Source: Geotalea uraniireducens Rf4
GTDB lineage: Bacteria; Desulfobacterota; Desulfuromonadia; Geobacterales; Geobacteraceae
DNA length: 32,000 nt
Direction of reading: 5' to 3'
Assembly (NCBI RefSeq): GCF_000016745.1
Contig: NC_009483.1
Coordinates: 3,060,001 to 3,092,000, forward strand
Made by a program: the position numbers and the translations under genes. The number at the start of each line of letters is the position of its first letter. Position 1 is the first letter of the stretch. Below, one piece after another: positions 11,197 through 30,157 of the stretch. The notes below the pieces were generated by a model that worked only from the letters and a program-made list of their open reading frames with translations, was not told the DNA's origin and searched no databases.

Positions 11197-12021
11197 TCAA
11201 AAAACCTCCGGGATGAACTTGAACGGGTAATCTGGCGACTTGTACTTCTGGTCTTTCTGCCGTTTCGGCAGTTTCACCTTTTCGCGCGGCGCCTCCTCGT
11301 AAGGAATCTTGCCGAGAAGGTGGGTAATGAGATTCAGCCTCGCGCGTTTCTTGTCGTCCGATTTCGCCACGTACCACGGGGCCCACGCCGTGTCGGTCGA
11401 TGCAAACATTTCGTCGCGCGCCTTGGTATAGTCGTCCCAGCGGCTGTAGGACTGGAGGTCCATGGGCGATAGTTTCCAGATCTTGCGCCCGTCGTCGATA
11501 CGCGCTTCGAGCCGGCGGGTCTGCTCATCAGGATTAACCTCGAGCCAATACTTGAGGAGGATGATGCCGGATTCGACCATCAGTTTCTCGAAGAGCGGCA
11601 CAACTCCCAGGAAGCGCCTGGCCTGCTCCTCTGTGCAGAAGCCCATGACCCGCTCGACCCCGGCCCGGTTGTACCAGCTGCGGTCAAAGATGACCACCTC
11701 GCCTGCCGCCGGCAGATGCGGCAAATAGCGCTGGGCATACATCTGCGTCTTCTCCCGCTCCGTCGGGGCGGGGAGCGCCACCACGCGAAATACCCGCGGG
11801 CTGATCCGTTCGGTGATCGCCTTGATCGTCCCCCCCTTCCCTGCGCCGTCGCGCCCTTCGAAGATCACACAGACCTTGAGCCCCTTGTACTTGACCCACT
11901 CCTGGAGCTTGACCAGCTCCACGTGAAGCTTCGCAAGTTCCTGTTCATAATCCTTGGTTTTCAACTTTTCACCGGATTTCTCATTTTCCCCTTTACCCTT
12001 TCCCTTTTTTGCACCTTTCAT
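11197..12021 (-). CDS. ppk2: Polyphosphate kinase 2 (single-domain PPK2)
   Basis: 274 aa. Walker A FEGRDGAGKGGTIK, Walker B-like IFDRSWYNRAGVERVMGF, and a lid region (..WKLSPMDLQSYSRWDDY..). Confidence 0.9.
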   Translation of the reverse strand: MKGAKKGKGKGENEKSGEKLKTKDYEQELAKLHVELVKLQEWVKYKGLKVCVIFEGRDGAGKGGTIKAITERISPRVFRVVALPAPTEREKTQMYAQRYLPHLPAAGEVVIFDRSWYNRAGVERVMGFCTEEQARRFLGVVPLFEKLMVESGIILLKYWLEVNPDEQTRRLEARIDDGRKIWKLSPMDLQSYSRWDDYTKARDEMFASTDTAWAPWYVAKSDDKKRARLNLITHLLGKIPYEEAPREKVKLPKRQKDQKYKSPDYPFKFIPEVF

Positions 12022-12154
12022 GGTTACCGCTCCTTTCTCCGCGTCATGCTAAACGGTTGCTTATTCTCATCATTCACCACTTATCTTCCGGAAGACACTC
12101 GACGTTCATTGCTGGCCTCCCCTTCATCCCGACCCGGCAACCGGACCGTCCACC

Positions 12155-14032
12155 TCAGAAAAATTCCCGCAGATTTTCGTCGATCCCTTTGAGTGTTTCG
12201 TACCAGAACTCCCGGGCAGCCTCGACTCTGTCCCGGTCGAACTTTTCGAGCCAATCGCCCAGCCGGGGGTCCTTCTCGTGGTCGACGTCCCTTTTCCGTT
12301 TCAGGAAGGTATGCAGATAGTCGATGTTACTCTTCGATTCCCAGAAAATCGGGCTGTTTCGGCTGTGCAGGCGGCTCGCGAGCACGTCGATGGCACGCAG
12401 GAAGCTCTCCTTGCAACCGTACAGCGAGCCCACGGCCTCGGGGAGCATCTCCTCCGCCCACCCGCGGTGAAAACGGCAGGTGCCGAGATTGTCGAGAATG
12501 AGTTCCTTCTTCATCCGATCCGCGCACATTCTCCCCAGGACCCGGGGCGGGATGAAGTCGTAGCTGTAGATCATGTAGTACTTCCCCATGATGGCCATCG
12601 GGGCCAGCGCGCCGGCGACCCAGTACTGGTTGGGGACCATCCATCCCCGCCGGCTGAAGGCGATGTATACAAGGCGGTCATGGAGCGACACACCTTTCTC
12701 CCGTGAATGGATCCGGCTCCACTTGCGCACCCCTTCTCCGAAATCGAGAATACCGCGCCGCTCCAGGATCGCGTCGATCAGTTCGCAGCCGAGATCGGCA
12801 TTGTGCATGGAATCGCTTACCACATCGAAACCCGCCACCTCCCAGCGCGGCAGCCTCGTGACCCCGAGCTCTTCACAGGTCAACAGTTTCGCGTCCAGAA
12901 GGTCCATCAGCCATGCCAGCACCCCCCCGCCGGAAATGGCGTCAAAACCCATGGCGTCGCAGTGGTGGTTGAGTTTTTCCGCCGCCCGCTGGTCGAAGAT
13001 GCCGCACAGGGGGCCCATGGTCTGGTATGGTTCGTAGTCCTTCTTGTACATGCCGCTCATCTTCTTGCAGACGGCGGCGCAGGGTTCGCCGCAGGTGGCC
13101 TGCTGTTTGGGTGTGATGGTCTCTTCGTTGAACTGCCTGAGGTAGTGATCGATCACGAAGTTTTGATGCAGGGCCTGGCGCTCCTCTTCCGTCCAGAAAA
13201 TGGTGCGGTAGTTGAAGGCCAGGATCTTCCCCCCCATGGTGGCGTAGTTGACGCCGAAGGTGCCGCCGGTATGAAGCTTTTCGTCGTAACGATACTTGCT
13301 GGTCGCCTCCATGTCCTTTTGCATCAGGCGCAGGTTGTACTTGTTCCGGAACCATTCGTCGGCCACCGTGTGGTCGCGGAAGTCCTCGTTTACCATCGTG
13401 CCGCCGTAGATGATTGCGACGATGCCATGCTCCCGGACCATCGCGCTGCCGAAGCCGCCGCGGCCGGCCCAGGTGTCGACGAAGCTGATCTTTCCCTTGG
13501 TGATGGGGACCGACATGATCCCTCCCACGTCGGTATGCATGGCCGCCGGACCGGTGACGAGGATGCGCGGATCGTTCGCGTAACGGGAGCCGAACATCTC
13601 GTAGACCTTGTCCGTCAGGGAGTAAACCCCCGTGCGCCCCGCCTTCCAGATGGACTCCACGTCAACGGGGACCACCTCGACCTCGATCTCTTCACCGTGG
13701 TTGCGGTTCAGGCAGAGGACCGACGGGACGGGGGCCTTCCCCACCAGGCTGAGCATGTTGATCCCCAGGTTGTCGAACACAAGCCCCGCGCCCCCCATGG
13801 AGCTGATGTAATACCCCTGCCAGCAGGGGGAAAAGCCGGTCACCACCAGCCGGTTCGAGCCCGGGAAGATGGAGCCGGCGAAGATGCCGACGCCGAAATT
13901 GAGGCTCCGGTACTCTGCGGCAAGATGGATACCGAGGTCCACCGGCCCGAAATAACGGTCGAAGCCGTACTTTCGAGTCTTGTAAAATCCGGTCGCCGGA
14001 TCGACCAATAGCACTCTCTGGAACATGTTCAT
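12155..14032 (-). CDS. aor: Aldehyde:ferredoxin oxidoreductase family protein (tungstopterin type), divergent
   Basis: 625 aa. AOR N-terminal domain (RVLLVDPATG...GPVDLG...GSNRLVVTG), a Cys cluster (TCGEPCAAVCKK plus LGTCRFH) and DAISGGGVLAWLMD. GAGGTG RBS lies upstream of the ATG at 14032. Confidence 0.8.
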   Translation of the reverse strand: MNMFQRVLLVDPATGFYKTRKYGFDRYFGPVDLGIHLAAEYRSLNFGVGIFAGSIFPGSNRLVVTGFSPCWQGYYISSMGGAGLVFDNLGINMLSLVGKAPVPSVLCLNRNHGEEIEVEVVPVDVESIWKAGRTGVYSLTDKVYEMFGSRYANDPRILVTGPAAMHTDVGGIMSVPITKGKISFVDTWAGRGGFGSAMVREHGIVAIIYGGTMVNEDFRDHTVADEWFRNKYNLRLMQKDMEATSKYRYDEKLHTGGTFGVNYATMGGKILAFNYRTIFWTEEERQALHQNFVIDHYLRQFNEETITPKQQATCGEPCAAVCKKMSGMYKKDYEPYQTMGPLCGIFDQRAAEKLNHHCDAMGFDAISGGGVLAWLMDLLDAKLLTCEELGVTRLPRWEVAGFDVVSDSMHNADLGCELIDAILERRGILDFGEGVRKWSRIHSREKGVSLHDRLVYIAFSRRGWMVPNQYWVAGALAPMAIMGKYYMIYSYDFIPPRVLGRMCADRMKKELILDNLGTCRFHRGWAEEMLPEAVGSLYGCKESFLRAIDVLASRLHSRNSPIFWESKSNIDYLHTFLKRKRDVDHEKDPRLGDWLEKFDRDRVEAAREFWYETLKGIDENLREFF

Positions 14033-14070
14033 ACGTCACCTCGGCTTGTTCTATTATCCAAAAAGAAGCG

Positions 14071-14105
14071 TTTCTCGCGCAAAGCCGCAAAGAACGCAAA
14101 GAAAT
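14071..14105. repeat. 35-bp intergenic repeat, (CGCAAAG)x3 orientation
   Basis: TTTCTCGCGCAAAGCCGCAAAGAACGCAAAGAAAT. Its reverse complement recurs at 14662-14696 with one mismatch. Confidence 0.85.
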
Positions 14106-14115
14106 TCAGGATGTT

Positions 14116-14490
14116 TCATGTTGTTTCCTGGCCTTCCAGAGAAGAAACTGTGATGCTTTCCTTTTGTATCCCCATCTGCCTTTCGACAACTGGCTGGGAA
14201 TAATGGTTGCCCGTGGAGAGGCACTTTACCGGGCAGACCTCGACGCACAGGTTGCAGATGCAGCACTTAAGCCGGTCGATCTGCCACGCCTTGCTCTCCT
14301 TGGTGACCGTGATGGCGTAGGTCGGACAGCGCCTGCCGCACATGCCGCAGAAGATGCACCTGTCGATGGCGTTCTCTATCCTCCCCCGGGTGATGGCGGT
14401 AAAAATCCGCTCCCGTTGGGGATACATGAGGGTGGCCGGCCCTGTGACCAGGTTTTTAGTTACCGTTTTCGTCATCGTGAAAATTTTCAT
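14116..14490 (-). CDS. 2x[4Fe-4S] ferredoxin-like subunit (EchF/NuoI/HycF-like)
   Basis: 124 aa. Two CxxCxxCxxxCP motifs (CIFCGMCGRRCP and CCICNLCVEVCP). Its ATG (14488-14490) overlaps the TGA of the large-subunit stub. Confidence 0.8.
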   Translation of the reverse strand: MKIFTMTKTVTKNLVTGPATLMYPQRERIFTAITRGRIENAIDRCIFCGMCGRRCPTYAITVTKESKAWQIDRLKCCICNLCVEVCPVKCLSTGNHYSQPVVERQMGIQKESITVSSLEGQETT

Positions 14491-14645
14491 GGTGGCGTGT
14501 CCTCACCTTCCGTGCAGCTGATGCACGGGTCCAGGGTTAATATGATGTTCGGCACGTCGGCGACCTCCGATCCCTTCAGCACCTTGATCATGGCCGGAAT
14601 GTTGCTGAAGGTGGGGACGCGTACACTAATGGTTTTGGTTTGTGT
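14487..14645 (-). pseudogene. C-terminal stub (52 codons) of a group 4 [NiFe]-hydrogenase large subunit (EchE/NuoD-like)
   Basis: Hand translation: TQTKTISVRVPTFSNIPAMIKVLKGSEVADVPNIILTLDPCISCTEGEDTPP*. It contains the C-terminal DPCxxC Ni-Fe ligand motif. It is preceded by an in-frame TAG (14646-14648) and has no plausible start. Only 88 bp separate it from the small-subunit gene. Confidence 0.65.
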
Positions 14646-14661
14646 CTACATAAGATTTCGC

Positions 14662-14696
14662 ATTTCTTTGCGTCCTTTGCGGCTTTGCGCGAGAAA
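14662..14696. repeat. 35-bp intergenic repeat, (CTTTGCG)x3 orientation
   Basis: ATTTCTTTGCGTCCTTTGCGGCTTTGCGCGAGAAA is the reverse complement of 14071-14105 with one mismatch, at 14674. Confidence 0.85.
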
Positions 14697-14736
14697 TTGC
14701 ATTTTGGGTTCGACCTCTTCGGATATTTCACGGCCC

Positions 14737-15180
14737 TTACGGCCACCGTCCGGTCTTTTTCCGCTGCGCATATTTCTCTTCAAGGATGTCGCACGCCTTG
14801 AGCACGCCGTCGATGATCGCTTCCGGCCGGGCGGCGCACCCCGGCACATACACGTCCACCGGCAGCACCTTGTCGACCCCGCCCAGCACGTTGTAACAGT
14901 CCTGGAACACGCAGCCGGACGTGGCGCAGATCCCCACCGCCACGATGACCTTCGGATTCGGCATCTGGTCGTAGAGATTCTGCAGAACCTGTCTGCTCTT
15001 CTCGTTGACCGATCCGGTCACCGCCAGGATGTCGGCATGCTTCGGGTTGCCGGTGCTCATGATGCCGAACCGTTCCAGATCATACAGGGGCGTCAGGCTG
15101 GCGATCAGCTCGATGTCGCAGCCGTTGCAACTGGTCGCATTGTAATGGAGCACCCATGGTGAACGTTTGAACCACCCCAT
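14737..15180 (-). CDS. Group 4 hydrogenase small subunit / NuoB-like (EchC/MbhJ-like)
   Basis: 147 aa. SCNGCDIE, NPKHADILAVTGSV, AVGICATSGCVF, VDVYVPGCAARPEAIIDG. The Cys ligands of the proximal [4Fe-4S] cluster are present. Confidence 0.85.
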   Translation of the reverse strand: MGWFKRSPWVLHYNATSCNGCDIELIASLTPLYDLERFGIMSTGNPKHADILAVTGSVNEKSRQVLQNLYDQMPNPKVIVAVGICATSGCVFQDCYNVLGGVDKVLPVDVYVPGCAARPEAIIDGVLKACDILEEKYAQRKKTGRWP

Positions 15181-15198
15181 AATTTTTTCTCCGCGTTC

Positions 15199-16080
15199 TC
15201 ATCGCATCAGGCTGAGAACGATGATATTCGACACCCCGGCCACGGCCGTAAACAGCCATGCACTCAGGAAGGTGAGCTGCCACTTGAAGCGGGCATAGTT
15301 CATGTCGATGAAAATCTCGAAAAGAAAGGTCGCCATGGCCATGACGAGGGCCAGCCAGGGAGTAAAGGCAAAGAAGAGGTAGATCATGCCGAGCAGCAAC
15401 ACGGTTTCATACCAGTGCGCGATCTCGATGAGGGCAAGCGCGGGCCCGACGAATTCGGTGGTGATCCCGCTGACGATTTCCTGGTGAGCGTGATGGGACA
15501 TGGAAAGGTCGAACGGCGACTTTCTGAATTTGATGGTAAGAATGAACAGAAAGCCGGCAAACACCCCGGGCAGAAAAAGGATCAGCGGCGCGTGATGCTG
15601 GGCAATCGTCCCCACCCTGAAGCTTCCAGTAACCTGGTACATACCGACCGCCATGAGGATGACCATCGGCTCATAGGCGACCATCTGGATGATTTCGCGC
15701 TCCGCCCCGAGGTGACTGTAAGGGGAGGCGACACAGTAACCGCCCAGTACGAAGAAGGTTCCTGCCAGGGCCAGGCTGAAGATGATCAGCAGGAGATCGG
15801 CCCCGGCGAAGAAGAGGGCCCCGGAAAACATGGTGAAGAGCAGAAAGAGCACGATGGGAAAATCCTGGAATTTGTTGACGATGATCCGTTCTTTGCGCAA
15901 CAGTTTGAAGACATCATAGAACGGCTGCATCACCGGCGGACCGTAGCGCCCCTGCAGGCGCGCACTCACCTTGCGATCGATCCCGGCCAGCAGCCCACCC
16001 GCAAGCGGTGCGAGCAGCACGAACGCCAGCATCCGTTCGATGATGCTCCAGGACCTTATCAACTCGTAGATGCCGTTCAT
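15199..16080 (-). CDS. NuoH/EchB/MbhM-like integral membrane subunit
   Basis: Track ORF 15199..16095 begins at a GTG. I prefer the ATG at 16080, preceded by AGGAG with a 6-nt spacer. Polytopic; RLQGRYGPPVMQPFYDVFKLLRKE is the NuoH-family signature region. Confidence 0.8.
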   Translation of the reverse strand: MNGIYELIRSWSIIERMLAFVLLAPLAGGLLAGIDRKVSARLQGRYGPPVMQPFYDVFKLLRKERIIVNKFQDFPIVLFLLFTMFSGALFFAGADLLLIIFSLALAGTFFVLGGYCVASPYSHLGAEREIIQMVAYEPMVILMAVGMYQVTGSFRVGTIAQHHAPLILFLPGVFAGFLFILTIKFRKSPFDLSMSHHAHQEIVSGITTEFVGPALALIEIAHWYETVLLLGMIYLFFAFTPWLALVMAMATFLFEIFIDMNYARFKWQLTFLSAWLFTAVAGVSNIIVLSLMR

Positions 16081-16230
16081 ATGAGGCTCCTGCACTACGT
16101 CGAAACCTTTGAACCGCCCGCTCCCTCCGGTCGCTCAAGACGCGAAGGACGCCAGGAAAATCCAAGGCGTTTTGGTTTTAGAAACCTTAAAAAAGGATTT
16201 TTTCCAAGGTCCTTGCAATCTGCATTTCTC

Positions 16231-16267
16231 CCCCTCTCCCTAACCCTCTTCCACCAGGGGAGAGGGG
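16231..16267. repeat. C-tract/G-tract palindromic (REP-like) hairpin
   Basis: CCCCTCTCCC (16231-16240) pairs with GGGAGAGGGG (16258-16267), giving a 10-bp stem and 17-nt loop. A second hairpin follows: CCCCTCC (16278-16284) with GGAGGGG (16292-16298). Confidence 0.6.
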
Positions 16268-16290
16268 ATTACAAGCGCCCCTCCTTCGAT

Positions 16291-16309
16291 GGGAGGGGGT
16301 GGGGGAGGG
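16291..16309 (+). other. G-quadruplex-forming motif GGGAGGGGGTGGGGGAGGG
   Basis: Four G-runs of at least 3 separated by 1-nt loops on the plus strand, which is the template strand for the minus-strand operon. Confidence 0.5.
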
Positions 16310-16378
16310 TGCATGGCAGTGATTTCATGCCCAAATGATAAGTGCAATTTTCTAACCGGACGATGCTGGTTTTTTTCC

Positions 16379-16397
16379 TTTCTTTGCGTTCTTTGCG
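16379..16397. repeat. Partial (19-bp) copy of the CTTTGCG repeat family
   Basis: TTTCTTTGCGTTCTTTGCG is identical to positions 2-20 of the reverse complement of 14071-14105. Confidence 0.7.
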
Positions 16398-16466
16398 TCT
16401 TGCCTAAGGGCACCTACTTCTGGTTGCGGTTACAGCGGTTTTTGCAAGGCGCAGGTAACATGCGCT

Positions 16467-18365
16467 TCACAAGGCTGCCACCCCGAACATGATGAAGAGC
16501 AACGTCAACGAAACAAAAATCCCGACATTGCACCACCGTTCTTCCCCGAAGTACTTCGTCAGGTAGTAGTTCCTGAGCTCGATTGTCTGCGTCGAAGCCA
16601 TGGCCCCTTCAAAGGTCACATTGTCGATATTCCCACCGCCAAGGTAGGTGCCGACCCGTTTGTAGTGCTTGTTGATGAAGGCATAGTAGAGGAGGCCGAG
16701 GGGAAGGATAATCAGCAGGCCCACCATGATGATGAACACGATGAGGACATTGAAGGTATCGACAACGGGCGTCTTCCCGAACATTTCCAGGAGATAGGGG
16801 TTGATGACGTGGAAGGAGATGAACGGAAAGCCGAGGCAGACTGCCACCGTGGCAACGGCCAGGATGCCCAGGGTGATCCATTCCCAGCGGCTCACCCGGT
16901 GCTCCAGAACCTCGGTTACGCCATGCTTGATGGAGATGATCTTGCCCATCCACTTGGTCCAGAAGAAGACCGTGGCGGCGCTGCCGTAGGCCAGGATGAT
17001 CGCCATGGCCGGATTGCTCTCGACAAAGGCCTTGAGGGTAATGAACTTGCTGATGATCATCCCGAACGGCGCCAGAAACATCCCGGCCATGCCGGTCATC
17101 ATGACCGCAGTGAGCTTGGGCAGGCGCATGATCAGGTAGTCCATGTCCTCGATGTCGCGGCTGTCCAGCTTGTATTCGATGATGCCCACACAAAGGAAGA
17201 GGAGCGACTTCGCCACCGCATGGAAGATGATCAGCAGGATCGCGGACCACACCGCCGCATCGGTGTTCACCCCCGCACAGGCGACGATGAGCCCCAGATT
17301 GGAGATGGTGGAATAGGCGAGCACTTTTTTGGCATTGCTCTGGGAAATGGCGATCAGTGCCGTGATGAGGAAGCTCACCCCGCCGATGAGGGTGAGCATC
17401 TTGGCCGCCGCGGTGTGCTCCATGACCGGCGCGACCCGCAGGATGAGGTAGACCCCGGCCTTGACCATCGTGCTCGAATGGAGCAGCGCCGACACCGGCG
17501 TGGGCGCCACCATGGCGCCGGTCAGCCAGGAGGAAAACGGGAACTGCGCCGACTTCACCAGGCCGGCAAAGGCAAGGCAGACGGCAGGGAGCAGCACCAG
17601 CCCCTTGTCGAGCCGAAGCATTTTGTCCAGTTCCATGATCCCTGAGGATGAGTAGAGGCAGACAAGGCCAACGGCGAACACCACCCCGCCGATCAGGTTC
17701 ATGTTCAGCGCCCTGAAAGCGCTCTCACGGGATGCCTCGTCGTCCCGATAGCCGATCAGCAGGAACGAGCAGACGGTGGTTATCTCCCAGAAGAAGTAGA
17801 GCCACATGAGGTTGTTGGAAAAGACGATGCCGAACATGGCGGAGAGAAAGAGGTACATGAGGAACGCGAAGTATCTGCGCCTGTCTTTTACTTCCTTGTA
17901 GTGCTCGTGATATTCGGGGAGGTAGCCGATGGCGTAGAGGCAGATGGCGCTGCCGATGATGCCGACAATGAGCGCCATGATGATGGAGAGCTTGTCCACG
18001 AACAGGCTGTGCTCGACCTGCATCCCGTGTCCGGAGGTGAACTCGAAAACCACCATGATGATCGACTGGACGACCACCAGAAGGACCGGGAGATATCTCT
18101 TCGCCCTGACGGATACATACACGATGAAGACGGCAACGAAGAGCTCGACAAGGAGCATGCCGATGTCGATGAGCGGGCTCTCCAGGTGAAAATACGCCGG
18201 CCCCCGGTCAAGATTGGTAACGAGGAGATAGATCGGCACGGCGCAGAGAGTGATATTGACGCACGCGCCGACAGCCTTTCTTGCGACAAGGCTGAGCGGC
18301 GGCACCAGCGCCAGGAAGGAAACTGCCAGGGGGAACACGATCAGAAAAATCAAAGCGTTCATCAT
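16467..18365 (-). CDS. NuoL/EchA/MbhH-like proton-conducting antiporter-type membrane subunit
   Basis: Track ORF 16467..18392 (641 aa). Many TM helices and NuoL/Mrp-type motifs (WEITTVCSFLLIGY, SALLHSSTMVKAGVYL). Candidate starts are 18392, 18380 and 18365; the ATG at 18365 has a GAGG 6 nt upstream. Confidence 0.8.
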   Translation of the reverse strand: MMNALIFLIVFPLAVSFLALVPPLSLVARKAVGACVNITLCAVPIYLLVTNLDRGPAYFHLESPLIDIGMLLVELFVAVFIVYVSVRAKRYLPVLLVVVQSIIMVVFEFTSGHGMQVEHSLFVDKLSIIMALIVGIIGSAICLYAIGYLPEYHEHYKEVKDRRRYFAFLMYLFLSAMFGIVFSNNLMWLYFFWEITTVCSFLLIGYRDDEASRESAFRALNMNLIGGVVFAVGLVCLYSSSGIMELDKMLRLDKGLVLLPAVCLAFAGLVKSAQFPFSSWLTGAMVAPTPVSALLHSSTMVKAGVYLILRVAPVMEHTAAAKMLTLIGGVSFLITALIAISQSNAKKVLAYSTISNLGLIVACAGVNTDAAVWSAILLIIFHAVAKSLLFLCVGIIEYKLDSRDIEDMDYLIMRLPKLTAVMMTGMAGMFLAPFGMIISKFITLKAFVESNPAMAIILAYGSAATVFFWTKWMGKIISIKHGVTEVLEHRVSRWEWITLGILAVATVAVCLGFPFISFHVINPYLLEMFGKTPVVDTFNVLIVFIIMVGLLIILPLGLLYYAFINKHYKRVGTYLGGGNIDNVTFEGAMASTQTIELRNYYLTKYFGEERWCNVGIFVSLTLLFIMFGVAAL

Positions 18366-18445
18366 CTCGACCTCATCCATGGTGGTTAACATCCAAAATG
18401 AGAGGCGCCAATGGCATTCATCGATATCTGAAATTTATTTTATTA

Positions 18446-18454
18446 ACTATACCA
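18446..18454 (-). promoter_or_regulatory. Candidate extended -10 promoter (TGGTATAGT) upstream of the Ech-like operon
   Basis: The minus strand reads TGGTATAGT inside the only AT-rich patch of the pgm to nuoL-like spacer. The -35 element is poor. Confidence 0.25.
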
Positions 18455-18508
18455 CACCAAATCGGCTTTCCCATGGCAAGGGTAAATCGTAGCCACAAAG
18501 GAACTTAC

Positions 18509-20167
18509 TCAGGCTCCAGCCTCAGCTAACGCGGCGTTGACGATGGCCACGGCCTCTTCCTGAATCCTCTGTAGATGTTCCTCCCCCAGAAAACTCTCCG
18601 CATAAATCTTGTAGATGTCCTCCGTGCCTGACGGACGCGCCGCAAACCACCCGTTCTGCGTCAGTACCTTAAGCCCCCCGATGTCGGCGTCATTCCCCGG
18701 CGCCCGGGTCAGTTTTGCCGTGATCGGCTCTCCGGCCAGCTCCTGCGCCGTCACCAGCTCCGGAGAGAGTTTCTTCAGGACCTTCTTCTGCTCCGCTGTC
18801 GCCGGGGCATCGATCCGGGTGTACGCCGGACTGCCGAAGCGGCTTTCGAGCTCATGGTACTGTTCGGCGGGGTCCCTGCCGGTCCTGGCGGTCATTTCGC
18901 AGGCGAGGAGATCCATGATGATGCCGTCCTTGTCGGTCGTCCAGACCGTGCCGTTTCTTCTGAGAAACGAAGCGCCGGCGCTCTCCTCGCCGCCGAATCC
19001 GAAGGAGCCGTCGATAAGCCCGTCCACAAACCACTTGAATCCGACGGGCACCTCAACTACCCTTCTCCCGAGCGCTGCGCCGACCCTGTCGATCATGGAC
19101 GTGGATACGAGGGTCTTGCCGATGGCGGCGTCCCTGCTCCACCCGTCCCTGTTCCGGAAGAGATACCAGACGGCGGCGGAGAGATAGTGGTTCGGGTTCA
19201 TGAGACCTTCCCTTTTTGTCACTATGCCGTGCCGGTCGACATCCGTGTCATTGCCGCAGGCGATGTCGAAACGGTCCTTCATCTGGATGAGGCTTGCCAT
19301 GGCAAAGGGGGACGAGCAGTCCATCCGGATCTTGCCGTCCTTGTCCAGGGTCATGAAGGAAAACGTGGGATCGACCATGCGATTGACCACGTCCAGTTTC
19401 AGGCCATAGCGCTCGGCGATGGGGTCCCAGAATGCAACCGCTGCCCCGCCGAGCGGGTCTATGCCGATCCTGATCCCCGCAGCTGCTATGAGCTCCATGT
19501 CGATGACGTTTCCGAGGTCGTTGACATAGGGTGAGACGTAGTCATGACGGTGGATGCACTCCGCCCCGATCGCCCTCGGGAACGGTATTCTCCTGACATC
19601 CTTTAGCCCCTGGGCCAGCAGTTCGTTGGCCCTCTTTTCGATGACCGTCGTGGTTGCCGTATCCGCCGGACCGCCATGGGGCGGATTGTACTTGAACCCG
19701 CCGTCTTCAGGGGGGTTGTGGGACGGGGTGACGACCACGCCGTCGGCCCGGTTCGTCCTCTCCCCGCGCTCGCGATTCCAGGTGAGGATGGCATGGGATA
19801 TCACCGGGGTCGGCGTATACCCGAGACCATCCTGGATGAACACCTCCACGTCGTTCGCGGCAAAGACCTCGATGGCACTCGCAAAGGCCGGTTCGGACAG
19901 GGCATGCGAATCCATGCCGAGGAAGAGCGGCCCCTCGATCCGCTGCGCCTTCCGGTACTCGCAGATGGCCTGGCTGACGGCAAGGATATGCGCCTCGTTG
20001 AAGCTGCTTTTCAGCGACGACCCCCGGTGGCCCGAGGTGCCGAAGGCGACCCGCTGCGCCGGGTCGGTGACATCCGGCGCATGGATGTAATAGGCCGAGA
20101 TGAGCCTCGGAATGTTCGCCAGCATCGACCGTGGCGCCGGCTTCCCGGCAAATTCATGCGCATCCAT
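18509..20167 (-). CDS. pgm: Phosphoglucomutase, alpha-D-glucose phosphate-specific
   Basis: 552 aa from the ATG at 20167 (20170 is TTG). GTSGHRG, active-site loop [15 protein letters not shown], and GGEESAG near the C-terminal domain. Confidence 0.9.
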
Positions 20168-20205
20168 CAACTTCTCCCCTTCCCGCCTGTATTGCCCGGT
20201 AGTTC

Positions 20206-21627
20206 CTACAGGGCGATGATCTCCATCCGGTTGTGCGTCCCGGGATGCTTTGTCGAGGGGCCTTCGGTAAGGATTGCCATGTCCCCGGTCACCCCATACT
20301 TCGCAAGCCAGCTCCGCACAAAAGAATCCCAGTCCTCCGGATGCTCCGGCTCGAACACGGGAAACACCCCGTAGGAAAAGGCGAGGTTCTGGCAGGTCTG
20401 TTCAAGTGAACTCACTGCCACGGTCCAGACCGGCATTCTGAAGAGCGACAGGCTCCGGGCGGTTAATCCGCTGTGGGTCGGGACGAAGACCGCCGCGGGA
20501 GGTGCGTACGTAATGCTCGCCTCGACCGCCATGGCAATGAGGTGCCCGGGCTTCAGCCTCCCCTTGAGGTCTATACCCTCGAAGAGTCCCTTGACCGTGA
20601 CCGGCTGTTTGTGGGGCTCGACGGTGGCCGCTATCCTGGCAAGCATCTCTACGGCATCCACGGGATACTTGCCCATGGCCGACTCTCCCGAGAGCATGAC
20701 GCAATCGGTGCCGTCGAGGATGGCGTTTGCCACATCGGTGGCCTCGGCGCGTGTCGGCCGCCTGTTCTCGGTCATGGATTCGAGCATCTGCGTTGCCGTT
20801 ATAACCGGCTTGGCGTACCGGTTGGCCTGGCGCATGAGATCCTTCTGGATAATGGCGATCCTTTCTATCGGTACCTCCACGCCCAGGTCGCCCCGGGCGA
20901 TCATGATGCCGTCCGCAGCATCCAAGATGTCATCCATATGTTCAAGGGCGTTCGACCGCTCGATCTTGGCGATGATGAACGGGTGGTAGTCGAGCGCTTC
21001 CGCAGCCTGACGGACAGCCCTGATGTCGGCACCGGACTCGACAAAGGACTGGCTGACCGCGTCGACTCCCTCTTGTGCTGCGAACTTCAGGCACGCGTGA
21101 TCACGCTCCGTGAAGGCGTTGATGCCGAGATTGATACCGGGGAGATTGAGTCCCTTGCGGGAGCGCAACTCGCCGCCCACGACCACCCGGCAGACAACGT
21201 CGCTTCCGGTGACTGACTCGACCTCCAGCTGGATGATGCCATCATTGAGGAAGAGCGCATCACCGGGCTTGACCGCCTGGGGCAGCCGATTGAAGGAAAC
21301 CGACACCCTGCCCCTGTCACCGTCGATCTCGTCGGTCGTCAACACGAAGGGATCACCCGGGTTCAGTTCGATCGGCTCTTCTTTCAGCTTGCCGATGCGC
21401 ATCTTGGGTCCGGAGAGGTCGGCCATGATCGCTATCCGGCAACCTGTGGACATGGACACGGCCCGGAGATTATCGATCACCCGCTTGTGGGCGGCGAAGT
21501 CGCCATGGGAAAAGTTCAAGCGGGCGACGTTCATCCCCCCCCGTGCCATCCGTTCCATAACCTCCCGAGATTCGGAGGCCGGGCCGATGGTGCAGACGAT
21601 CTTGGTCTTGTGGTCGGCAAGGTTCAC
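20206..21627 (-). CDS. pyk: Pyruvate kinase
   Basis: 473 aa. [40 protein letters not shown] start at 21625-21627 with AAGGAG upstream. Confidence 0.9.
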
Positions 21628-21735
21628 GGAGTTTCTCCTTGTTTTACCGTATTCATAACCCTACGTGAGGCAAATCGGAATCCACCATGAAGTCACGTAG
21701 GACACGAAGGTAACCCATCTAAAAGGTTATTGTTT

Positions 21736-21769
21736 TTCTTCGTGCTCTTCGTGCCTTCGTGGTGAAAAA
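21736..21769. repeat. CTTCGTG-variant intergenic repeat
   Basis: TTCTTCGTGCTCTTCGTGCCTTCGTGGTGAAAAA has the same three-unit plus purine-tail architecture as 14662-14696, with TCGTG in place of TTGCG. CACGAAGG at 21703-21710 can pair with CCTTCGTG at 21754-21761. Confidence 0.5.
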
Positions 21770-21778
21770 GGTTTTTGT

Positions 21779-23047
21779 TTATTGCCCCGTTTTCATACGC
21801 TTTTCGATGACCGCTTCGGCCTGGAGCGCGATTTCCAGTTCCTCATTGGTGGGCACAACGAGGACCCTGACTGCGGTTTCTTCCTCCTGAATCTCTGCGG
21901 CCTTCCCCGCCACTGCGCCGTTCTTCCGTGCGTCCACGGAAATCCCGAGGTTCCGCAAACCGGCACACACTGCGCTGCGCACCGCCGCCGAGTTTTCCCC
22001 GATACCGCCGGTGAAGATCATGGCATCGAGACGGCCGAGCACGGCACAGTACGCACCGATGTACTTCCTGACCCGGTAGCAGAACATGTCGAAGGCCAGC
22101 GCGGCACGTTCGTCCCCTTCGCTGGCCCGTTGTTGGATCTCCCGCATGTCGGAAAAGCCGCAGACACCTTTGAGCCCGCTTTCCTTGTTCAGGAGGTTTT
22201 CCACCTTCTCGGGCGTCAGTGCCAGCTGCCGGATGAGATAGAAAGGTATCGCCGGGTCGAGGTCGCCGCTGCGCGTTCCCATGACGAGACCTTCCAGGGG
22301 GGTCATCCCCATGGAGGTGTCGATGCACTCCCCTGCCCGGATGGCAGCGACGCTGGCACCGTTGCCGAGATGCAGGGTGATGAGGTTGAGCTCTTCCATA
22401 GGGTGCCCCAGGAATTGCGCCGCTTCCCGTGCGACAAAGGCATGGGAGGCCCCGTGAAACCCGTACCTGCGGACCTGGTACTTCTCGTAGAGTTCATGGG
22501 GCAAGGCATAGCGATAGGCAGCCGGAGGGAGCGTCTGATGGAACGCCGTGTCGAAGACCGCCACCTGCGGAATTCCGTGGAAGCGCATCCGGGCCGCTTC
22601 GATGCCGAGGAGATTGGAGGGGTTGTGGAGCGGGGCCAGCGGAATGAGCCTCTCGATGGCTGCCACGACCTCGTCATCGACTATGGCCGGCTCCCGGAAC
22701 AGCTCCCCGCCGTGCACCACGCGATGGCCGACGCAGAAGAGCTCCGCGTCGTCCCGGATGATCCGGTTCTCCCGGTTCATGTCCACCATGAAATTGAAGG
22801 CCTCATGGTGATCGGCGAGGGGCTTCATATGCACCTGCTCGACGAAGGTGCCGTCCGCCTGCAGGCGGCTCTGGCGCATGCGCCCCTCCGCGCTGCCGAT
22901 CCTTTCCACCAGCCCCGTGGCAAGCTTTGTCCGCTTTTTCCGGTCGAACACCTCGTACTTGATCGAGGAGCTACCGCAGTTGATGACCCCGACTTTCGTG
23001 CCTTTTTCCCCGGACAGGGACTCTTCGATGTCGTGACGCTCAGACAT
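21779..23047 (-). CDS. ackA: Acetate kinase
   Basis: 422 aa. VINCGSSSIKYEVF, VGHRVVHGG, RRYGFHGASH, FTGGIGENS. GGGAGG RBS. Confidence 0.9.
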   Translation of the reverse strand: MSERHDIEESLSGEKGTKVGVINCGSSSIKYEVFDRKKRTKLATGLVERIGSAEGRMRQSRLQADGTFVEQVHMKPLADHHEAFNFMVDMNRENRIIRDDAELFCVGHRVVHGGELFREPAIVDDEVVAAIERLIPLAPLHNPSNLLGIEAARMRFHGIPQVAVFDTAFHQTLPPAAYRYALPHELYEKYQVRRYGFHGASHAFVAREAAQFLGHPMEELNLITLHLGNGASVAAIRAGECIDTSMGMTPLEGLVMGTRSGDLDPAIPFYLIRQLALTPEKVENLLNKESGLKGVCGFSDMREIQQRASEGDERAALAFDMFCYRVRKYIGAYCAVLGRLDAMIFTGGIGENSAAVRSAVCAGLRNLGISVDARKNGAVAGKAAEIQEEETAVRVLVVPTNEELEIALQAEAVIEKRMKTGQ

Positions 23048-23084
23048 AATCTACCTCCCTCTCGCCAGGCGCTCCGGCCGAATG

Positions 23085-24374
23085 TCAGCGTATGTCCCGT
23101 GGCTGACCGGTGGAGGCAAGCACGCTGCTCCAGAGCCACCCATCGGGGTCGATCTTCTTCCTCTGCCGCGTGGCAAGATCGATCGGCACATGGGTAAACT
23201 GGTTGTTCCAGAACCCCACCACCATGTTGGTCCGCCCCGCCATCCCCGCGTGCACCGCGTTGTGACCAAGCAGGAGACAGAGGGCCGAATCGTGGGGATT
23301 TGCCGGCTGGCTCCGGATGATGTAGCTCGGGTCGATATACTTGAGATTGATCTCCCGTCCGCTGCGTGCGAAATGCTCCTTGATGGCGTCCCGCAGATAC
23401 GTCCCGATGTCGCCCAGCTTGACATTGCCCGAGGCATCGCGCCCCCCCGTGGCTGCCAGGAGTTCCTGGCCGGCCCCCTCTGCCACGACGATCACCGCGT
23501 GCCCCCGTGCCGTAAGCCGCTCCTCCAGGCTTCGGAGCAGTCCCGGCAGGGTGAAGGGTACCTCGGGGACCAGGCAATAATTCACCTGGCTGTCCACCAG
23601 TGCCGTGTACGCGGCGATGAATCCCGAGTCGCGCCCCATGAGCTTCACCAGACCGATGCCGTTCTTTGCCCCGAGGGCCTCGGTGTTGGCGGCGTAGGTA
23701 GCCAGTTTCGCCTCGGCTACGGCGGTTTCAAAACCGAAAGTCGTCTGGATGAAGGAAATGTCATTGTCGATGGTCTTCGGGATGCCGATGACGCTGATGG
23801 GACGCCCCCGCCGGGCCGCCTCCCCGGCTATCTTCCCTGCCCCCTTCAGGGTGCCGTCCCCGCCGATGGCGAAGAGGATGCCGATTCCCAGTTCCTCCAC
23901 GTTGTCGACCATTTCGGCCGGATCCTGTGGCCCCCGGGAAGAGGCGAGAATCGTCCCCCCCATCTCGCCGATGCGCTCCACCACCTCGGGGGTAAGATCG
24001 AGGGGGTTGTGACCGAGGCGCTTCACCAGACCTTCGTAGCCGTAGCGGAAGCCGTAGATTCGCCGAACGCCGTAGTGATGGTAGAGGCTCAGCACAACTG
24101 CGCGGATCACGTTGTTGATCCCCGGGCAGAGGCCGCCGCATGTCACAATGCCGCAGGCGATGGTCGCCGGGTCGAAGAAGATCCGTTCCCGCGGCCCGGC
24201 CAGTTCCAGCGCCGGCGGCTCCGCTCCCGCTGCGAGGTACGGTTTCATGTCATCGAAGCGGGAGTGGTACATGATCCGCTCGCCGTCGCCGGCAAACCGG
24301 CCTTTGCGCATGGGCGACGGAAAGCGGCACTCGCCGAGCCGCTCGATGGTGAAGTCCAGATCCTGGTCAGTCAT
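23085..24374 (-). CDS. pfkA: 6-phosphofructokinase, ATP-dependent type by motif
   Basis: 429 aa. TCGGLCPGINNVIR, FAIGGDGTLKGA (GGDG rather than the PPi-type GGDD), IGIPKTIDND. Confidence 0.85.
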   Translation of the reverse strand: MTDQDLDFTIERLGECRFPSPMRKGRFAGDGERIMYHSRFDDMKPYLAAGAEPPALELAGPRERIFFDPATIACGIVTCGGLCPGINNVIRAVVLSLYHHYGVRRIYGFRYGYEGLVKRLGHNPLDLTPEVVERIGEMGGTILASSRGPQDPAEMVDNVEELGIGILFAIGGDGTLKGAGKIAGEAARRGRPISVIGIPKTIDNDISFIQTTFGFETAVAEAKLATYAANTEALGAKNGIGLVKLMGRDSGFIAAYTALVDSQVNYCLVPEVPFTLPGLLRSLEERLTARGHAVIVVAEGAGQELLAATGGRDASGNVKLGDIGTYLRDAIKEHFARSGREINLKYIDPSYIIRSQPANPHDSALCLLLGHNAVHAGMAGRTNMVVGFWNNQFTHVPIDLATRQRKKIDPDGWLWSSVLASTGQPRDIR

Positions 24375-24383
24375 GGCACCCCC

Positions 24384-24534
24384 TTACCCTTGAACATCGT
24401 AGTGCCGGTTCCCCGCAGCTCCGTCACCGCACCGTTTCACCCGCTCGGCCATGGCCGTCTCGGCCAGTGCCAGGTAGTTGCGCCCTTGCCCGGTCGAGCA
24501 TCTCGCAGTAGACTTTGAAATCGGCAACCGGCAT
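24384..24534 (-). pseudogene. Small ORF with an apparent 1-nt frameshift (about 50 codons)
   Basis: The ATG at 24534 follows AAGGGAAG and reads MPVADFKVYCEMLDRAR.. with coding-like GC-rich third positions. Near 24484-24492 (GGCAAGGGCG) that frame degenerates. The +1 frame then continues NYLALAETAMAERVKRCGDGAAGNRHYDVQG* (stop at 24384), again with coding-like third positions. Confidence 0.3.
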
Positions 24535-24561
24535 AATTCTTCCCTTGGATCGCGTCCGTCT

Positions 24562-24933
24562 TCACTCCAGCCAGGCGCGTGCTTCAGCAAGGCGGTTTTC
24601 GGCAAAGTATTTCACCGGTGCGCGCCGAAAGCCTGCTCCCGTGAACATCAGCATTCTGGTTTCCCATTTGGGATCGCCGACGATCGCAATCTTCGCGATC
24701 CTGTCGCCGTAATGCACAAAAAACGTCATATCGTTCCAGACTTCCCCTCCCACCCAGCCGCAAAAATCCTCTCCAACCATGACCAGCAACTTGACGTCTT
24801 CGGGATTTTGCGCTCTGAGGCCGGCAGCCTTGATCCCCACAGCCTGGATAGCGTCCATCTCTTCCTTTCGCAGCGCTCCGGTAATGCGCACCACCCATAC
24901 ACCGCTCTTGTCCTGCTGAATTGTTGCGCCCAT
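24562..24933 (-). CDS. STAS/SEC14-like (SpoIIAA-like, DUF3478-type) domain protein
   Basis: The last 123 aa of track ORF 24562..25245: MGATIQQDKSGVWVVRITGAL...FCGWVGGEVWNDMTFFVHYGDRIAKIAIVGDPKWE...VKYFAENRLAEARAWLE. GAGAGGAA lies upstream of the ATG at 24933. Confidence 0.7.
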   Translation of the reverse strand: MGATIQQDKSGVWVVRITGALRKEEMDAIQAVGIKAAGLRAQNPEDVKLLVMVGEDFCGWVGGEVWNDMTFFVHYGDRIAKIAIVGDPKWETRMLMFTGAGFRRAPVKYFAENRLAEARAWLE

Positions 24934-24944
24934 AAGAGTTCCTC

Positions 24945-25245
24945 TCAATTTGTGATCTCTGCCGCAGCCCGAATTCCACCGACAAGAAGCGCTCTGACCT
25001 GTTCGAGACGGAGAATCTCGACCTTCTGAAAGCGGAACGATCGCCCTTCCCCAGCTTCGACCGCTGTATGCATTCTCCGGAACAGCACCCGGATCCGCTC
25101 TGTCGAGCATGACCGGGGCGGTCTTGGCGAAAGTTTCCTTGACCGGGGCACTCTTTGCCGGCGTGTGCGCAGCCTCTCCCGAAAGGGATGGCATCGGGAT
25201 GAATGCGGCTGCCAGGAAGGCAAGAAGAAAGAGTGCCCGTTTCAT
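24945..25245 (-). pseudogene. Small secreted-protein ORF, possibly frameshifted
   Basis: The ATG at 25245 gives a clean signal peptide, MKRALFLLAFLAAAFIPMPSLSGEAAHTPAKSAPVKETFAKTAPVMLDRADPGAVPENA. After about 25075 this frame turns R/S/G/W-rich and runs in-frame into the STAS gene. The +1 frame reads the more protein-like MHTAVEAGEGRSFRFQKVEILRLEQVRALLVGGIRAAAEITN* (stop at 24945). Confidence 0.3.
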
Positions 25246-25275
25246 GTGGACTCCGTGAAAAGCTTTGCCGGTGAA

Positions 25276-27389
<2,114 letters not shown>

Positions 27390-30128: not shown

Positions 30129-30157
30129 GATAGATCCTTTCCGGAAATAATGTACCG

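What the first reader, a model, noticed from the sequence alone, without database searches (positions are those of the whole stretch)
12155..18392. Ech/Mbh-type energy-converting hydrogenase operon lacking its [NiFe] large subunit (only a 52-codon DPCxxC stub remains), coupled to an aldehyde:ferredoxin oxidoreductase
**Gene order on the minus strand.**
- NuoL/EchA-like subunit
- a 370-bp repeat-filled spacer
- NuoH/EchB-like subunit
- NuoB/EchC-like small subunit, with its cluster cysteines intact
- an 88-bp spacer holding a 35-bp repeat
- the stub 14487-14645
- the EchF/NuoI-like 2x[4Fe-4S] protein
- an 83-bp spacer holding the inverted copy of the same repeat
- AOR

**The stub.** It reads ..VRVPTFSNIPAMIKVLKGSEVADVPNIILTLDPCISCTEGEDTPP*. 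This is the extreme C-terminus of a group 4 large subunit, including the C-terminal Ni-Fe cysteine pair. It follows an in-frame TAG and has no start codon. Its TGA still overlaps the ATG of the EchF-like gene (ATGA), a fossil of the ancestral echE-echF coupling.

**What is missing.** Compared with the canonical echABCDEF layout, the EchD-like gene and most of the large subunit are gone, while the four other subunits remain intact ORFs.

**Two readings.**
- A very recent repeat-associated deletion killed an AOR to ferredoxin to Ech to H2 pathway. AOR reduces ferredoxin and Ech oxidises it.
- The membrane, NuoB and NuoI modules are retained for a hydrogenase-independent, ferredoxin- or AOR-linked ion-translocating function.

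The second reading would be a new member of the complex I / Mbh / Mbx / Ehr modular family.
Basis: partly seen in the sequence, partly recalled or inferred. Interest (0 to 1): 0.75.

Follow-up and report, generated by a model that had tools for sequence, protein, structure and literature searches.

The report
Deletion-broken Ech hydrogenase operon remnant
In the bacterium Geotalea (Geobacter) uraniireducens Rf4, a 1.6-kb deletion has removed the catalytic subunit genes of an energy-converting (Ech) hydrogenase operon; this is most likely ordinary gene loss rather than a new kind of respiratory complex, although the surviving genes show no decay yet.

Summary
The window is G. uraniireducens Rf4. 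On the minus strand lie echA, echB, echC, a roughly 40-codon remnant of echE, echF and a 625-aa GAPOR-like tungsten oxidoreductase.

- **Ancestral layout.** Four close Geobacteraceae relatives carry echABCDEF plus the same oxidoreductase. At least 17 related contigs have a full-length 359-aa EchE.
- **The lesion.** In Rf4 about 1.6 kb (echD plus EchE codons 1-319) is replaced by about 127 nt of filler. The filler holds one arm of a 35-nt inverted repeat.
- **Not an artefact.** The junction recurs in independent read assemblies. It also recurs in two metagenome contigs of a strain about 99% identical.
- **One claim fails.** The "fossil ATGA coupling" is wrong. Relatives end EchE with ...CTER* 7-112 nt before echF; Rf4 lost one base, and the frame now runs into echF's ATG.

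Best reading (about 0.68): a lineage-specific inactivating deletion of a dispensable cassette. Geomonas RF6 has the same neighbourhood with no ech at all.

Caveat: echA/B/C/F are intact in both deletion-bearing strains and differ mostly by synonymous changes (7.5 N : 21.5 S). Retained function is therefore not excluded, but recombination confounds this test. A second partial copy (an EchF'-'GAPOR fusion, ABQ25010) lies elsewhere in the genome and could not be inspected.

The parts
16467..18392 (-). echA (NuoL/MrpA-like membrane subunit). The GenBank protein ABQ26828 starts at the Met at 18365.
   Evidence: PF00361 E = 1e-57 and PF00662. It is 100% identical to 'ech hydrogenase subunit A [Geotalea uraniireducens Rf4]'. 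It is intact, and 91% identical to the ortholog in the intact operon of L083.
16096..16466 (-). echA-echB spacer. In three relatives these two genes overlap by 4 nt. Positions 16203-16452 are a 250-nt Rf4-specific insertion. It holds a G/C-rich palindromic element and the third copy of the GCAAAG repeat (16380-16396).
   Evidence: The insertion is absent from the 99%-identical strain L091. The element is 83-86% identical, in inverted orientation, to one in the echB-echC spacer of L085.
15199..16080 (-). echB (NuoH-like membrane subunit), 293 aa from the ATG at 16080.
   Evidence: PF00146 E = 5e-39. ABQ26827 is named 'Ech hydrogenase subunit B'. It is 96% identical to the L083 ortholog.
14737..15180 (-). 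echC (NuoB-like small subunit), intact.
   Evidence: PF01058 E = 4e-32. Cys18, 21, 85 and 115 are conserved in the alignment with four orthologs. Only the naturally variable C-terminal tail differs.
14625..14751 (-). Filler of about 127 nt. It replaces about 1.6 kb: the echC-echD spacer, echD and echE codons 1-319. It contains one arm of the 35-nt inverted repeat (14662-14696).
   Evidence: Homology to L083 and L085 ends at 14752/14749 and resumes at 14624. The filler has no match elsewhere except the repeat. It is identical in L091 and L092.
14487..14624 (-). echE remnant: the last 39 codons, including DPCISC at 14531-14514. A 1-nt deletion at about 14508 removes the ancestral ...TER* stop, so the frame runs on to a TGA overlapping the echF ATG.
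14116..14490 (-). echF (NuoI-like 2x[4Fe-4S] subunit), intact.
   Evidence: Fer4 family hits and weaker NuoI/HycF-type hits. All eight cluster cysteines are invariant. dS to L083 is 0.61, against 0.12 for echC and 0.16 for the AOR gene, so this segment has a different history.
14033..14115 (-). echF-GAPOR spacer holding the other arm of the inverted repeat (14071-14105).
12155..14032 (-). GAPOR-like member of the tungsten/molybdenum AOR family, 625 aa, intact.
   Evidence: PF02730 + PF01314. NCBIfam GAPOR_Arch E = 6e-104, 349 bits against a cut-off of 1300. It is only distantly related to solved AOR structures (E = 1.6e-6). Sources name it glyceraldehyde-3-phosphate:ferredoxin oxidoreductase.

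Best explanation
This is a degenerate copy of the Geobacteraceae echABCDEF operon, a group-4e energy-converting [NiFe]-hydrogenase.

**What happened.** In the lineage leading to G. uraniireducens Rf4, one rearrangement associated with small mobile repeats removed echD and the first 319 codons of echE. It left about 127 nt of filler and a 39-codon echE tail, which later (or earlier) lost one more base. Without the NiFe large subunit and the NuoC-like EchD, the enzyme cannot make or oxidise H2. The remaining echA, echB, echC and echF are most likely functionless leftovers that have not yet accumulated disabling mutations.

**Inferred ancestral role.** Ech re-oxidised the ferredoxin reduced by the adjacent GAPOR-like enzyme (and by PFOR) during glycogen or sugar catabolism. 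This would release H2 and conserve energy, as in the Pyrococcus GAPOR + Mbh scheme. That outlet is lost in Rf4; the GAPOR-like gene and the glycolytic genes remain.

**Shown:** the deletion, its boundaries, its reproducibility, the ancestral gene order, and the dispensability of ech in a relative.
**Inferred:** loss of function of the remaining subunits, the physiological role, and the repeat-mediated mechanism.
For: - **Ancestral state.** L083, L085, L087 and L088 (EchA 86-91% identical) all have echA-B-C-D-E(359 aa)-F plus the 625-aa GAPOR-like gene. At least 17 related contigs have a full-length EchE before echF. Only Rf4, L091 and L092 have residues 316-358 alone.
- **Breakpoints.** Homology to the relatives stops at 14752/14749 and resumes at 14624.
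- **No echD or echE elsewhere in the window**.
- **No Rf4 EchE found in the protein database.** None of the 120 best EchE homologs (at least 77% identical) and none of 10 inspected EchE clusters carries a G. uraniireducens name. EchA, B, C, F and GAPOR all do, with consecutive accessions ABQ26824-26828 and nothing between EchC and EchF.
- **A second lesion in the remnant.** A 1-nt deletion destroys the conserved ...CTER* end.
- **ech is dispensable here.** Geomonas sp. RF6 has debranching enzyme-PFK-PK-GAPOR-like-PPK2 with only 37 nt where ech would be.
- **The island is eroding in this species.** Strain L091 has lost ackA-PK-PGM. Rf4 carries a second, truncated EchF'-'GAPOR fusion, ABQ25010. 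A 250-nt repeat element entered the echA-echB junction only in Rf4.
- **The deletion looks young.** The presumably neutral remnant has no amino-acid change against 22 intact EchE tails. Filler plus stub differ at 1 of 250 nt between Rf4 and L091.
- **Established knowledge (not tested here).** Every characterised member of the complex I / Mbh / Mbx / Ech / Ehr superfamily has NuoD-like and NuoB-like subunits forming the catalytic pocket.
Against: - **No disabling mutations.** echA, B, C and F (3.6 kb) have no stop or frameshift in Rf4 or in L091.
- **Mostly synonymous differences.** Between these two deletion-bearing strains the four genes differ by 7.5 nonsynonymous and 21.5 synonymous changes, pN/pS 0.11. 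The binomial P is 5e-8 against neutrality. For changes seen in none of four relatives the count is 3 N: 16 S. If the deletion predates this divergence, the genes are still under selection.
- **No excess on the Rf4 branch.** Rf4 shows 21 N: 87 S, against 43 N: 97 S for L083.
- **No intact conspecific.** All three conspecific sequences carry the deletion.

**Counter-argument.** Local divergence between the strains is very heterogeneous: pS is 0.0055 in PPK2, 0.012 in echF, 0.027 in echA and 0.128 in GAPOR, with clustered differences. Much of the variation may therefore be recombination imports, or may predate the deletion. The test is not clean.
Confidence: 0.68

Rival explanations
1. Split operon, complemented in trans. 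EchD and EchE are encoded elsewhere in the Rf4 genome, for example in the second partial copy of this region around ABQ25010. They assemble with EchA/B/C/F from this locus, so Rf4 still has a working Ech hydrogenase.
For: A second copy of at least echF-GAPOR exists elsewhere in the genome: P0384/ABQ25010 is EchF residues 1-96, with only 3 substitutions, fused to the last ~40-47 residues of GAPOR. This would explain the purifying-selection signature and the absence of disabling mutations. The stub-echF block has a different history from its flanks (dS 0.61 against 0.12-0.16), which fits exchange between two copies.
Against: No G. uraniireducens EchE appears among the 120 best EchE homologs or in 10 EchE clusters. 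The EchA and EchB 90% clusters hold no second G. uraniireducens gene product: EchB has one Rf4 protein, and EchA has two start-site versions of the same gene. The second copy is itself visibly degraded.
Confidence: 0.1
2. Hydrogenase-independent module. EchA/B/C/F, possibly with the GAPOR-like enzyme or ferredoxin, are retained as a novel ion-translocating or electron-transfer unit lacking NuoD- and NuoC-like subunits. Alternatively, only the antiporter-like EchA/EchB keep a transport role.
For: The evidence is the same lack of decay: pN/pS 0.11, and 3 N: 16 S for strain-unique changes. EchC plus EchF alone show 2 N: 4 S. All Fe-S ligands are intact. The deletion is shared by all three conspecific sequences.
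Against: No member of the complex I superfamily is known to work without the NuoD-like subunit, which forms the active-site pocket with NuoB and NuoH (established knowledge, not tested here). No relative shows an echABCF-only layout; it is either the full operon or none. The selection test is confounded by recombination. The echA-echB translational coupling was disrupted by a 250-nt insertion in Rf4.
Confidence: 0.08
3. Origin variant, compatible with loss of function. The event was not a simple deletion. The ancestral echD-echE-echF was replaced by a repeat-flanked 'echE-echF block of about 710 nt (14043-14752), through ectopic recombination with a second, diverged copy of the cluster.
For: The block bounded by the two inverted 35-nt repeats is 86% identical to L083, while the flanking echC and GAPOR are 95-97% identical. 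dS is 0.61 against 0.12 and 0.16. A second copy exists in the genome. All three copies of the repeat core in the window sit at ech junctions.
Against: The discordance could equally come from recombination in the L083 lineage; echA is also mosaic. The DNA of the second copy is not available. No target-site duplications or transposase were seen.
Confidence: 0.3
4. Assembly or sequencing artefact: the real genome has a full echD-echE here.
For: Repeats at the junctions could in principle collapse an assembly.
Against: Independent Logan assemblies span the junction at 100% identity in 3 samples. Two JGI metagenome contigs of a different strain have the same junction without gaps.
Confidence: 0.01

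Closest known systems
Ech hydrogenase (echABCDEF), group 4e [NiFe]-hydrogenase, as in Methanosarcina barkeri and many anaerobic bacteria
   Same: The gene order echA-B-C-(D-E)-F is the same. The subunit families match: NuoL-, NuoH-, NuoB- and NuoI-like. The remnant carries the C-terminal DPCxxC motif. Close relatives have the complete six-gene operon.
   Different: echD and 320 of 359 EchE codons are missing, including the N-terminal NiFe cysteine pair. The enzyme as defined cannot exist here.
Ehr (Ech-hydrogenase-related) complexes of Geobacter sulfurreducens (GSU0739-45), and Mbx/Mbs
   Same: They are complex-I-like modules in the same bacterial family that do not act as hydrogenases (PMC7894505).
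   Different: According to the literature (not tested here), Ehr and Mbx keep a full-length large-subunit homolog that has merely lost the Ni-binding cysteines. Here the subunit itself is gone.
Pyrococcus furiosus ferredoxin-dependent glycolysis: GAPOR plus the membrane-bound hydrogenase Mbh
   Same: The ancestral Geobacteraceae island combines a GAPOR-like enzyme, glycolytic and glycogen genes, and an energy-converting hydrogenase. The logic is the same: reduced ferredoxin from glyceraldehyde-3-phosphate oxidation is disposed of as H2 with energy conservation (from my own knowledge).
   Different: Here the system is bacterial, uses Ech rather than Mbh, and the enzyme activity is untested. In Rf4 the hydrogenase half is broken.
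Ordinary bacterial pseudogenisation by repeat- or MITE-associated deletion
   Same: The event is lineage-specific, small repeats sit at the junctions, a secondary frameshift lies in the remnant, and neighbouring deletions and insertions occur in sister strains.
   Different: The remaining cistrons show no decay and have a low N/S ratio between two strains that share the lesion.

Membership tests
Group 4e [NiFe]-hydrogenase (Ech) | Large subunit (EchE, about 359 aa) with both the N-terminal and the C-terminal (DPCxxC) Ni-Fe cysteine pairs | tested here: not met
   Only residues 316-358 of 359 are found in the window, at 14636-14508. The Pfam match covers only positions 230-269 of 271 of PF00346. 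The C-terminal pair is present; the N-terminal pair is absent.
Group 4e [NiFe]-hydrogenase (Ech) | NuoC-like subunit EchD (PF00329) | tested here: not met
   tblastn with two EchD orthologs finds nothing in the 32 kb (best E = 1.6). Relatives have it between echC and echE.
Group 4e [NiFe]-hydrogenase (Ech) | NuoB-like small subunit with four Cys for one [4Fe-4S] cluster | tested here: met
   PF01058 E = 4e-32. Cys18, 21, 85 and 115 are conserved with four orthologs.
Group 4e [NiFe]-hydrogenase (Ech) | EchF, a 2x[4Fe-4S] NuoI-like subunit | tested here: met
   Fer4 families and NuoI/HycF-type hits, the latter below the curated cut-offs. Eight Cys in two CxxCxxCxxxCP motifs are invariant.
Group 4e [NiFe]-hydrogenase (Ech) | Two integral membrane subunits, EchA (NuoL-like) and EchB (NuoH-like) | tested here: met
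   PF00361/PF00662 and PF00146. They are 91% and 96% identical to orthologs in an intact operon.
Group 4e [NiFe]-hydrogenase (Ech) | Ferredoxin-dependent H2 evolution or uptake activity | not testable with these tools
   This needs enzyme assays on Rf4 membranes.
Ehr / Mbx-type hydrogenase-related complexes | Full-length large-subunit homolog lacking the Ni-binding cysteines | tested here: not met
   There is no large-subunit homolog beyond the 39-codon tail, and that tail retains the cysteines.
AOR family / GAPOR | AFOR_N and AFOR_C domains | tested here: met
   PF02730 E = 7e-18 and PF01314 E = 2e-18, both above the gathering scores.
AOR family / GAPOR | Equivalog-level match to archaeal GAPOR (NF040818) | tested here: inconclusive
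   It is the only NCBIfam hit and covers the full length (E = 6e-104), but scores 349 bits against a cut-off of 1300. JGI and UniProt name the protein GAPOR. Substrate was not tested.

The most novel reading that the evidence does not exclude
echA, echB, echC and echF are kept by selection after loss of the catalytic EchD/EchE. Either they form a previously unknown complex-I-type module that works without a NuoD-like subunit (fed by ferredoxin or GAPOR), or they are one half of a hydrogenase whose catalytic genes now sit at a second locus.
Probability: 0.15. Interest if true: 0.75.

Novelty: new member of a known kind. Interest (0 to 1): 0.3.

Why it matters
As gene decay it is ordinary. It means that Rf4, a model uranium- and iron-reducer, probably cannot use the Ech route for ferredoxin:H2 cycling that its closest relatives have. 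Metabolic models should take this into account.

Two aspects have wider value.
- Geobacteraceae carry a conserved island joining glycogen and glycolysis genes, a GAPOR-like tungsten-family enzyme and Ech. I found no publication describing it. It suggests an endogenous sugar-fermentation or H2-release mode in a group regarded as strict respirers.
- The shared deletion, with apparently constrained leftover subunits, offers a natural test. It asks whether the membrane, NuoB and NuoI modules of the complex I superfamily can have any role without the NuoD-like subunit.

Tried and rejected
**Searches that did not help.**
- The genome-contig scan with EchC returned only relatives at most 71% identical, and no Rf4. 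It served for distant synteny but not for reading the rest of the Rf4 genome.
- An exact 26-nt junction pattern found nothing in the metagenomes. The sister strain has a mismatch exactly at 14625.
- Exact-protein look-ups failed for the 641-aa EchA ORF, for P0038 and for the second-copy protein P0384. The last look-up, P0364, returned only Rf4 itself.
- Literature searches gave no description of this lesion or of the island. They covered Ech plus G. uraniireducens, Geobacter plus GAPOR, the G. bemidjiensis and P. carbinolicus genome papers, the HydDB supplements, and Gura_26 locus tags.
- Rfam found no family in the window.
- The promoter and terminator scan was at background level.

**Arguments considered and dropped.**
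- I first took the deficit of differences in filler plus stub (1 in 250 nt, Poisson P = 0.011) as evidence that the junction is younger than the flanking divergence. I downgraded it after finding equally low divergence in PPK2 (pS 0.0055).
- I rejected in-frame fusion of the stub to EchC. The frames differ by one, and a TAG intervenes.

Full report
**Identity of the window.** The 641-aa ORF at 16467-18392 is 100% identical to "ech hydrogenase subunit A [Geotalea uraniireducens Rf4]", on a 5,136,364-bp record. The database names the neighbouring products Ech hydrogenase subunits B, C and F and glyceraldehyde-3-phosphate ferredoxin oxidoreductase. Their GenBank accessions, ABQ26824-ABQ26828, are consecutive, so no protein is annotated between EchC and EchF.

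**Check of the observation.**
- Pfam assigns echA to PF00361/PF00662, echB to PF00146 and echC to PF01058.
- echF falls in 4Fe-4S dicluster families, and the last gene has AFOR_N plus AFOR_C.
- The 52-codon stub matches the extreme C-terminus of PF00346 (positions 230-269 of 271, E = 5.7e-5).
- In about 25 distant echABC..F loci the stub aligns (E about 1e-11 to 1e-15 in the closer loci, weaker in the most distant) to the last ~40 residues of the gene immediately before echF. That gene ends about 1.35 kb downstream of echC.
- With EchE from close relatives, the only hit in the 32 kb is residues 316-358 of 359, at 14636-14508 (E = 2e-19). EchD gives nothing.
- The 35-nt inverted repeat (14071-14105 / 14662-14696) is 97% complementary.
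- The repeat core occurs three times in the window, all in ech intergenic spacers, against none expected.
- EchC keeps its four cysteines and EchF its eight.

The junction is not an assembly error. Two Logan contigs from other read sets are 100% identical over 16280-14480 and 14245-11660. Two JGI metagenome contigs of a different strain are colinear across it.

**What the ancestral state was.** Four Geobacteraceae contigs with EchA 86-91% identical (L083, L085, L087, L088) all carry echA-B-C-D-E-F followed by a 625-aa ortholog of the AOR-family gene.
- Nucleotide homology between Rf4 and these relatives runs to the end of echC (window 14752/14749). It resumes at 14624, which corresponds to EchE codon 320.
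- About 1.6 kb (1,648 nt in L083 and 1,612 nt in L085) is replaced by 127 nt that match nothing except the repeat.
- Across all loci fetched, at least 17 show a full-length EchE before echF, and the others are cut only by contig ends.
- The truncated form is confined to Rf4 and its sister strain.

**The stub in detail.** Its 39 homologous codons translate to a sequence identical to the C-termini of 22 intact EchE proteins.
- In four relatives EchE ends ...DPCISCTER*, with the stop 7 to 112 nt before the echF ATG and no overlap.
- Rf4 has lost one A in GAAAGG (about 14508), so the frame bypasses the old stop and ends at a TGA overlapping the echF ATG.
- The "fossil ATGA coupling" is therefore a secondary lesion, not an ancestral feature.
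- The stub also contains an in-frame ATG at 14591. A gene caller called a 34-aa ORF there. Nothing suggests that this ORF is functional.

**The AOR gene and the neighbourhood.** The enzyme is only remotely similar to solved AOR and FOR structures.
- Its only NCBIfam hit is archaeal GAPOR. The match covers the full length but falls well below the curated cut-off.
- JGI and UniProt call it GAPOR.
- It follows echF in six relatives, but in none of the distant ech loci.
- It also exists without ech. Geomonas sp. RF6 has debranching enzyme-PFK-PK-GAPOR-like-PPK2, with 37 nt where ech would be. G. benzoatilyticus has it in an unrelated context.
- In the window the same strand encodes glycogen phosphorylase, GAPDH, PFK, acetate kinase, pyruvate kinase and phosphoglucomutase. 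Then come the ech remnant, the GAPOR-like gene and PPK2.

My inference is that the ancestral island supports glycogen or sugar catabolism to acetate. Ferredoxin reduced by GAPOR would be re-oxidised by Ech, as in Pyrococcus GAPOR plus Mbh. I know that scheme from memory; it was not tested here.

**Age of the deletion and state of the survivors.**
- *Against relatives with intact operons.* Pairwise dN/dS for Rf4 is 0.07-0.28 per gene, similar to values among the intact operons. The Rf4 branch shows no excess of replacements: 21 N: 87 S, against 43 N: 97 S for L083.
- *Against a sister strain with the same lesion.* This is more telling. Metagenome contigs L091 and L092 are about 99% identical to Rf4 and carry the identical junction. 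Between the two strains echA, B, C and F have no stops or frameshifts. They differ by 7.5 nonsynonymous and 21.5 synonymous changes (pN/pS 0.11, binomial P = 5e-8 against neutrality). Changes seen in none of four relatives split 3 N: 16 S.
- *What this would mean.* If the deletion predates this divergence, the four genes are still under purifying selection.
- *Why I do not consider that established.* Local divergence between the strains is very uneven. pS is 0.0055 in PPK2, 0.012 in echF, about 0.027 in echA and 0.128 in the GAPOR-like gene, and differences are visibly clustered. Recombination is therefore frequent. Many differences may be imports from strains with intact operons, or may predate the deletion.
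- *The neutral control.* The presumably neutral filler plus stub differ at only 1 of 250 nt, against about 6.5 expected from synonymous and spacer sites (P = 0.011). This fits a young junction, but PPK2 shows that such quiet stretches occur anyway.

**Other signs of erosion and rearrangement.**
- The stub-echF block bounded by the two repeats has dS 0.61 to L083, while flanking echC and the GAPOR-like gene have 0.12 and 0.16. The block, or the L083 counterpart, was exchanged by recombination.
- Rf4 has a 250-nt repeat-bearing insertion at the echA-echB junction. It is absent from L091, and these two genes overlap by 4 nt in three of the four close relatives.
- L091 lacks the 4.6 kb holding ackA, PK and PGM.
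- Elsewhere in the Rf4 genome, ABQ25010 (143 aa) consists of EchF residues 1-96 fused to the last ~40-47 residues of the GAPOR-like protein. It is a second, degraded copy of the region.
- I could not read the DNA around that copy. No G. uraniireducens EchE turned up among the 120 best EchE homologs or in ten EchE clusters.

**Verdict.** The finding is a real, reproducible, lineage-specific deletion that removes the catalytic core of an Ech hydrogenase. The most likely meaning is loss of a dispensable cassette caught at an early stage of decay (confidence about 0.68). They rest only on the undecayed, apparently constrained state of echA/B/C/F. That signal needs the whole Rf4 genome and more strains to be resolved.

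The annotation already labels the four genes as Ech subunits, and I found no publication discussing the lesion. I rate it a degraded new member of a known kind, of modest interest.

Noticed in passing
window 11197-30209 (minus strand); L083, L085, L087, L088, L090: Geobacteraceae carry a conserved island. It holds glycogen phosphorylase or debranching enzyme, PGM, PFK, FBP aldolase, GAPDH, PK and acetate kinase, together with Ech hydrogenase, a GAPOR-like AOR-family enzyme and PPK2. It looks like a ferredoxin-dependent sugar or glycogen catabolic module with H2 release. I found no paper describing it.
   Followed up: partly
elsewhere in the Rf4 genome (protein ABQ25010.1 = P0384; not in the window): A 143-aa annotated protein is EchF residues 1-96 (3 substitutions) fused to the last ~40-47 residues of the GAPOR-like protein. 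It is a second, internally deleted copy of the echF-GAPOR region. What lies upstream of it is unknown, and it bears directly on whether echD/echE survive elsewhere.
   Followed up: partly
L091/L092 positions 303-309, against window 18433-23009: The 99%-identical wild strain lacks the 4.6 kb encoding acetate kinase, pyruvate kinase and phosphoglucomutase, so PFK abuts echA. This is another deletion in the same island.
   Followed up: partly
window 16203-16452: A 250-nt insertion is specific to Rf4 and absent from L091. It holds a G/C-rich palindromic element that is 83-86% identical, in inverted orientation, to one in the echB-echC spacer of L085. It also holds a copy of the GCAAAG 9-mer repeat. 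Small mobile repeats appear to be active in this lineage and to target ech intergenic junctions.
   Followed up: partly
window 12155-14032, against L091 4459-6333: The GAPOR-like gene is five times more diverged between the two strains (pS 0.128) than the adjacent ech genes. Its differences are tightly clustered, for example at 13604-13641 and 12254-12299. This pattern is typical of recombination imports.
   Followed up: partly
L083 8001-9896 (EchA residues 22-63): L083 has a dense patch of 11 lineage-specific amino-acid replacements at the EchA N-terminus. It is probably another recombination tract, and it shows that the operon is mosaic across Geobacteraceae.
   Followed up: no
L121 130-900: In a metagenome contig, EchE and EchF each align as two pieces in different positions. 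This could be frameshifts, either sequencing errors or another decaying ech operon.
   Followed up: no
protein database cluster of window EchC (cluster 3): The 90%-identity cluster containing Rf4 EchC (147 aa) has a 359-aa EchE as its representative and mixes EchC and EchE proteins. This is a clustering oddity of the database and could mislead automated annotation.
   Followed up: no
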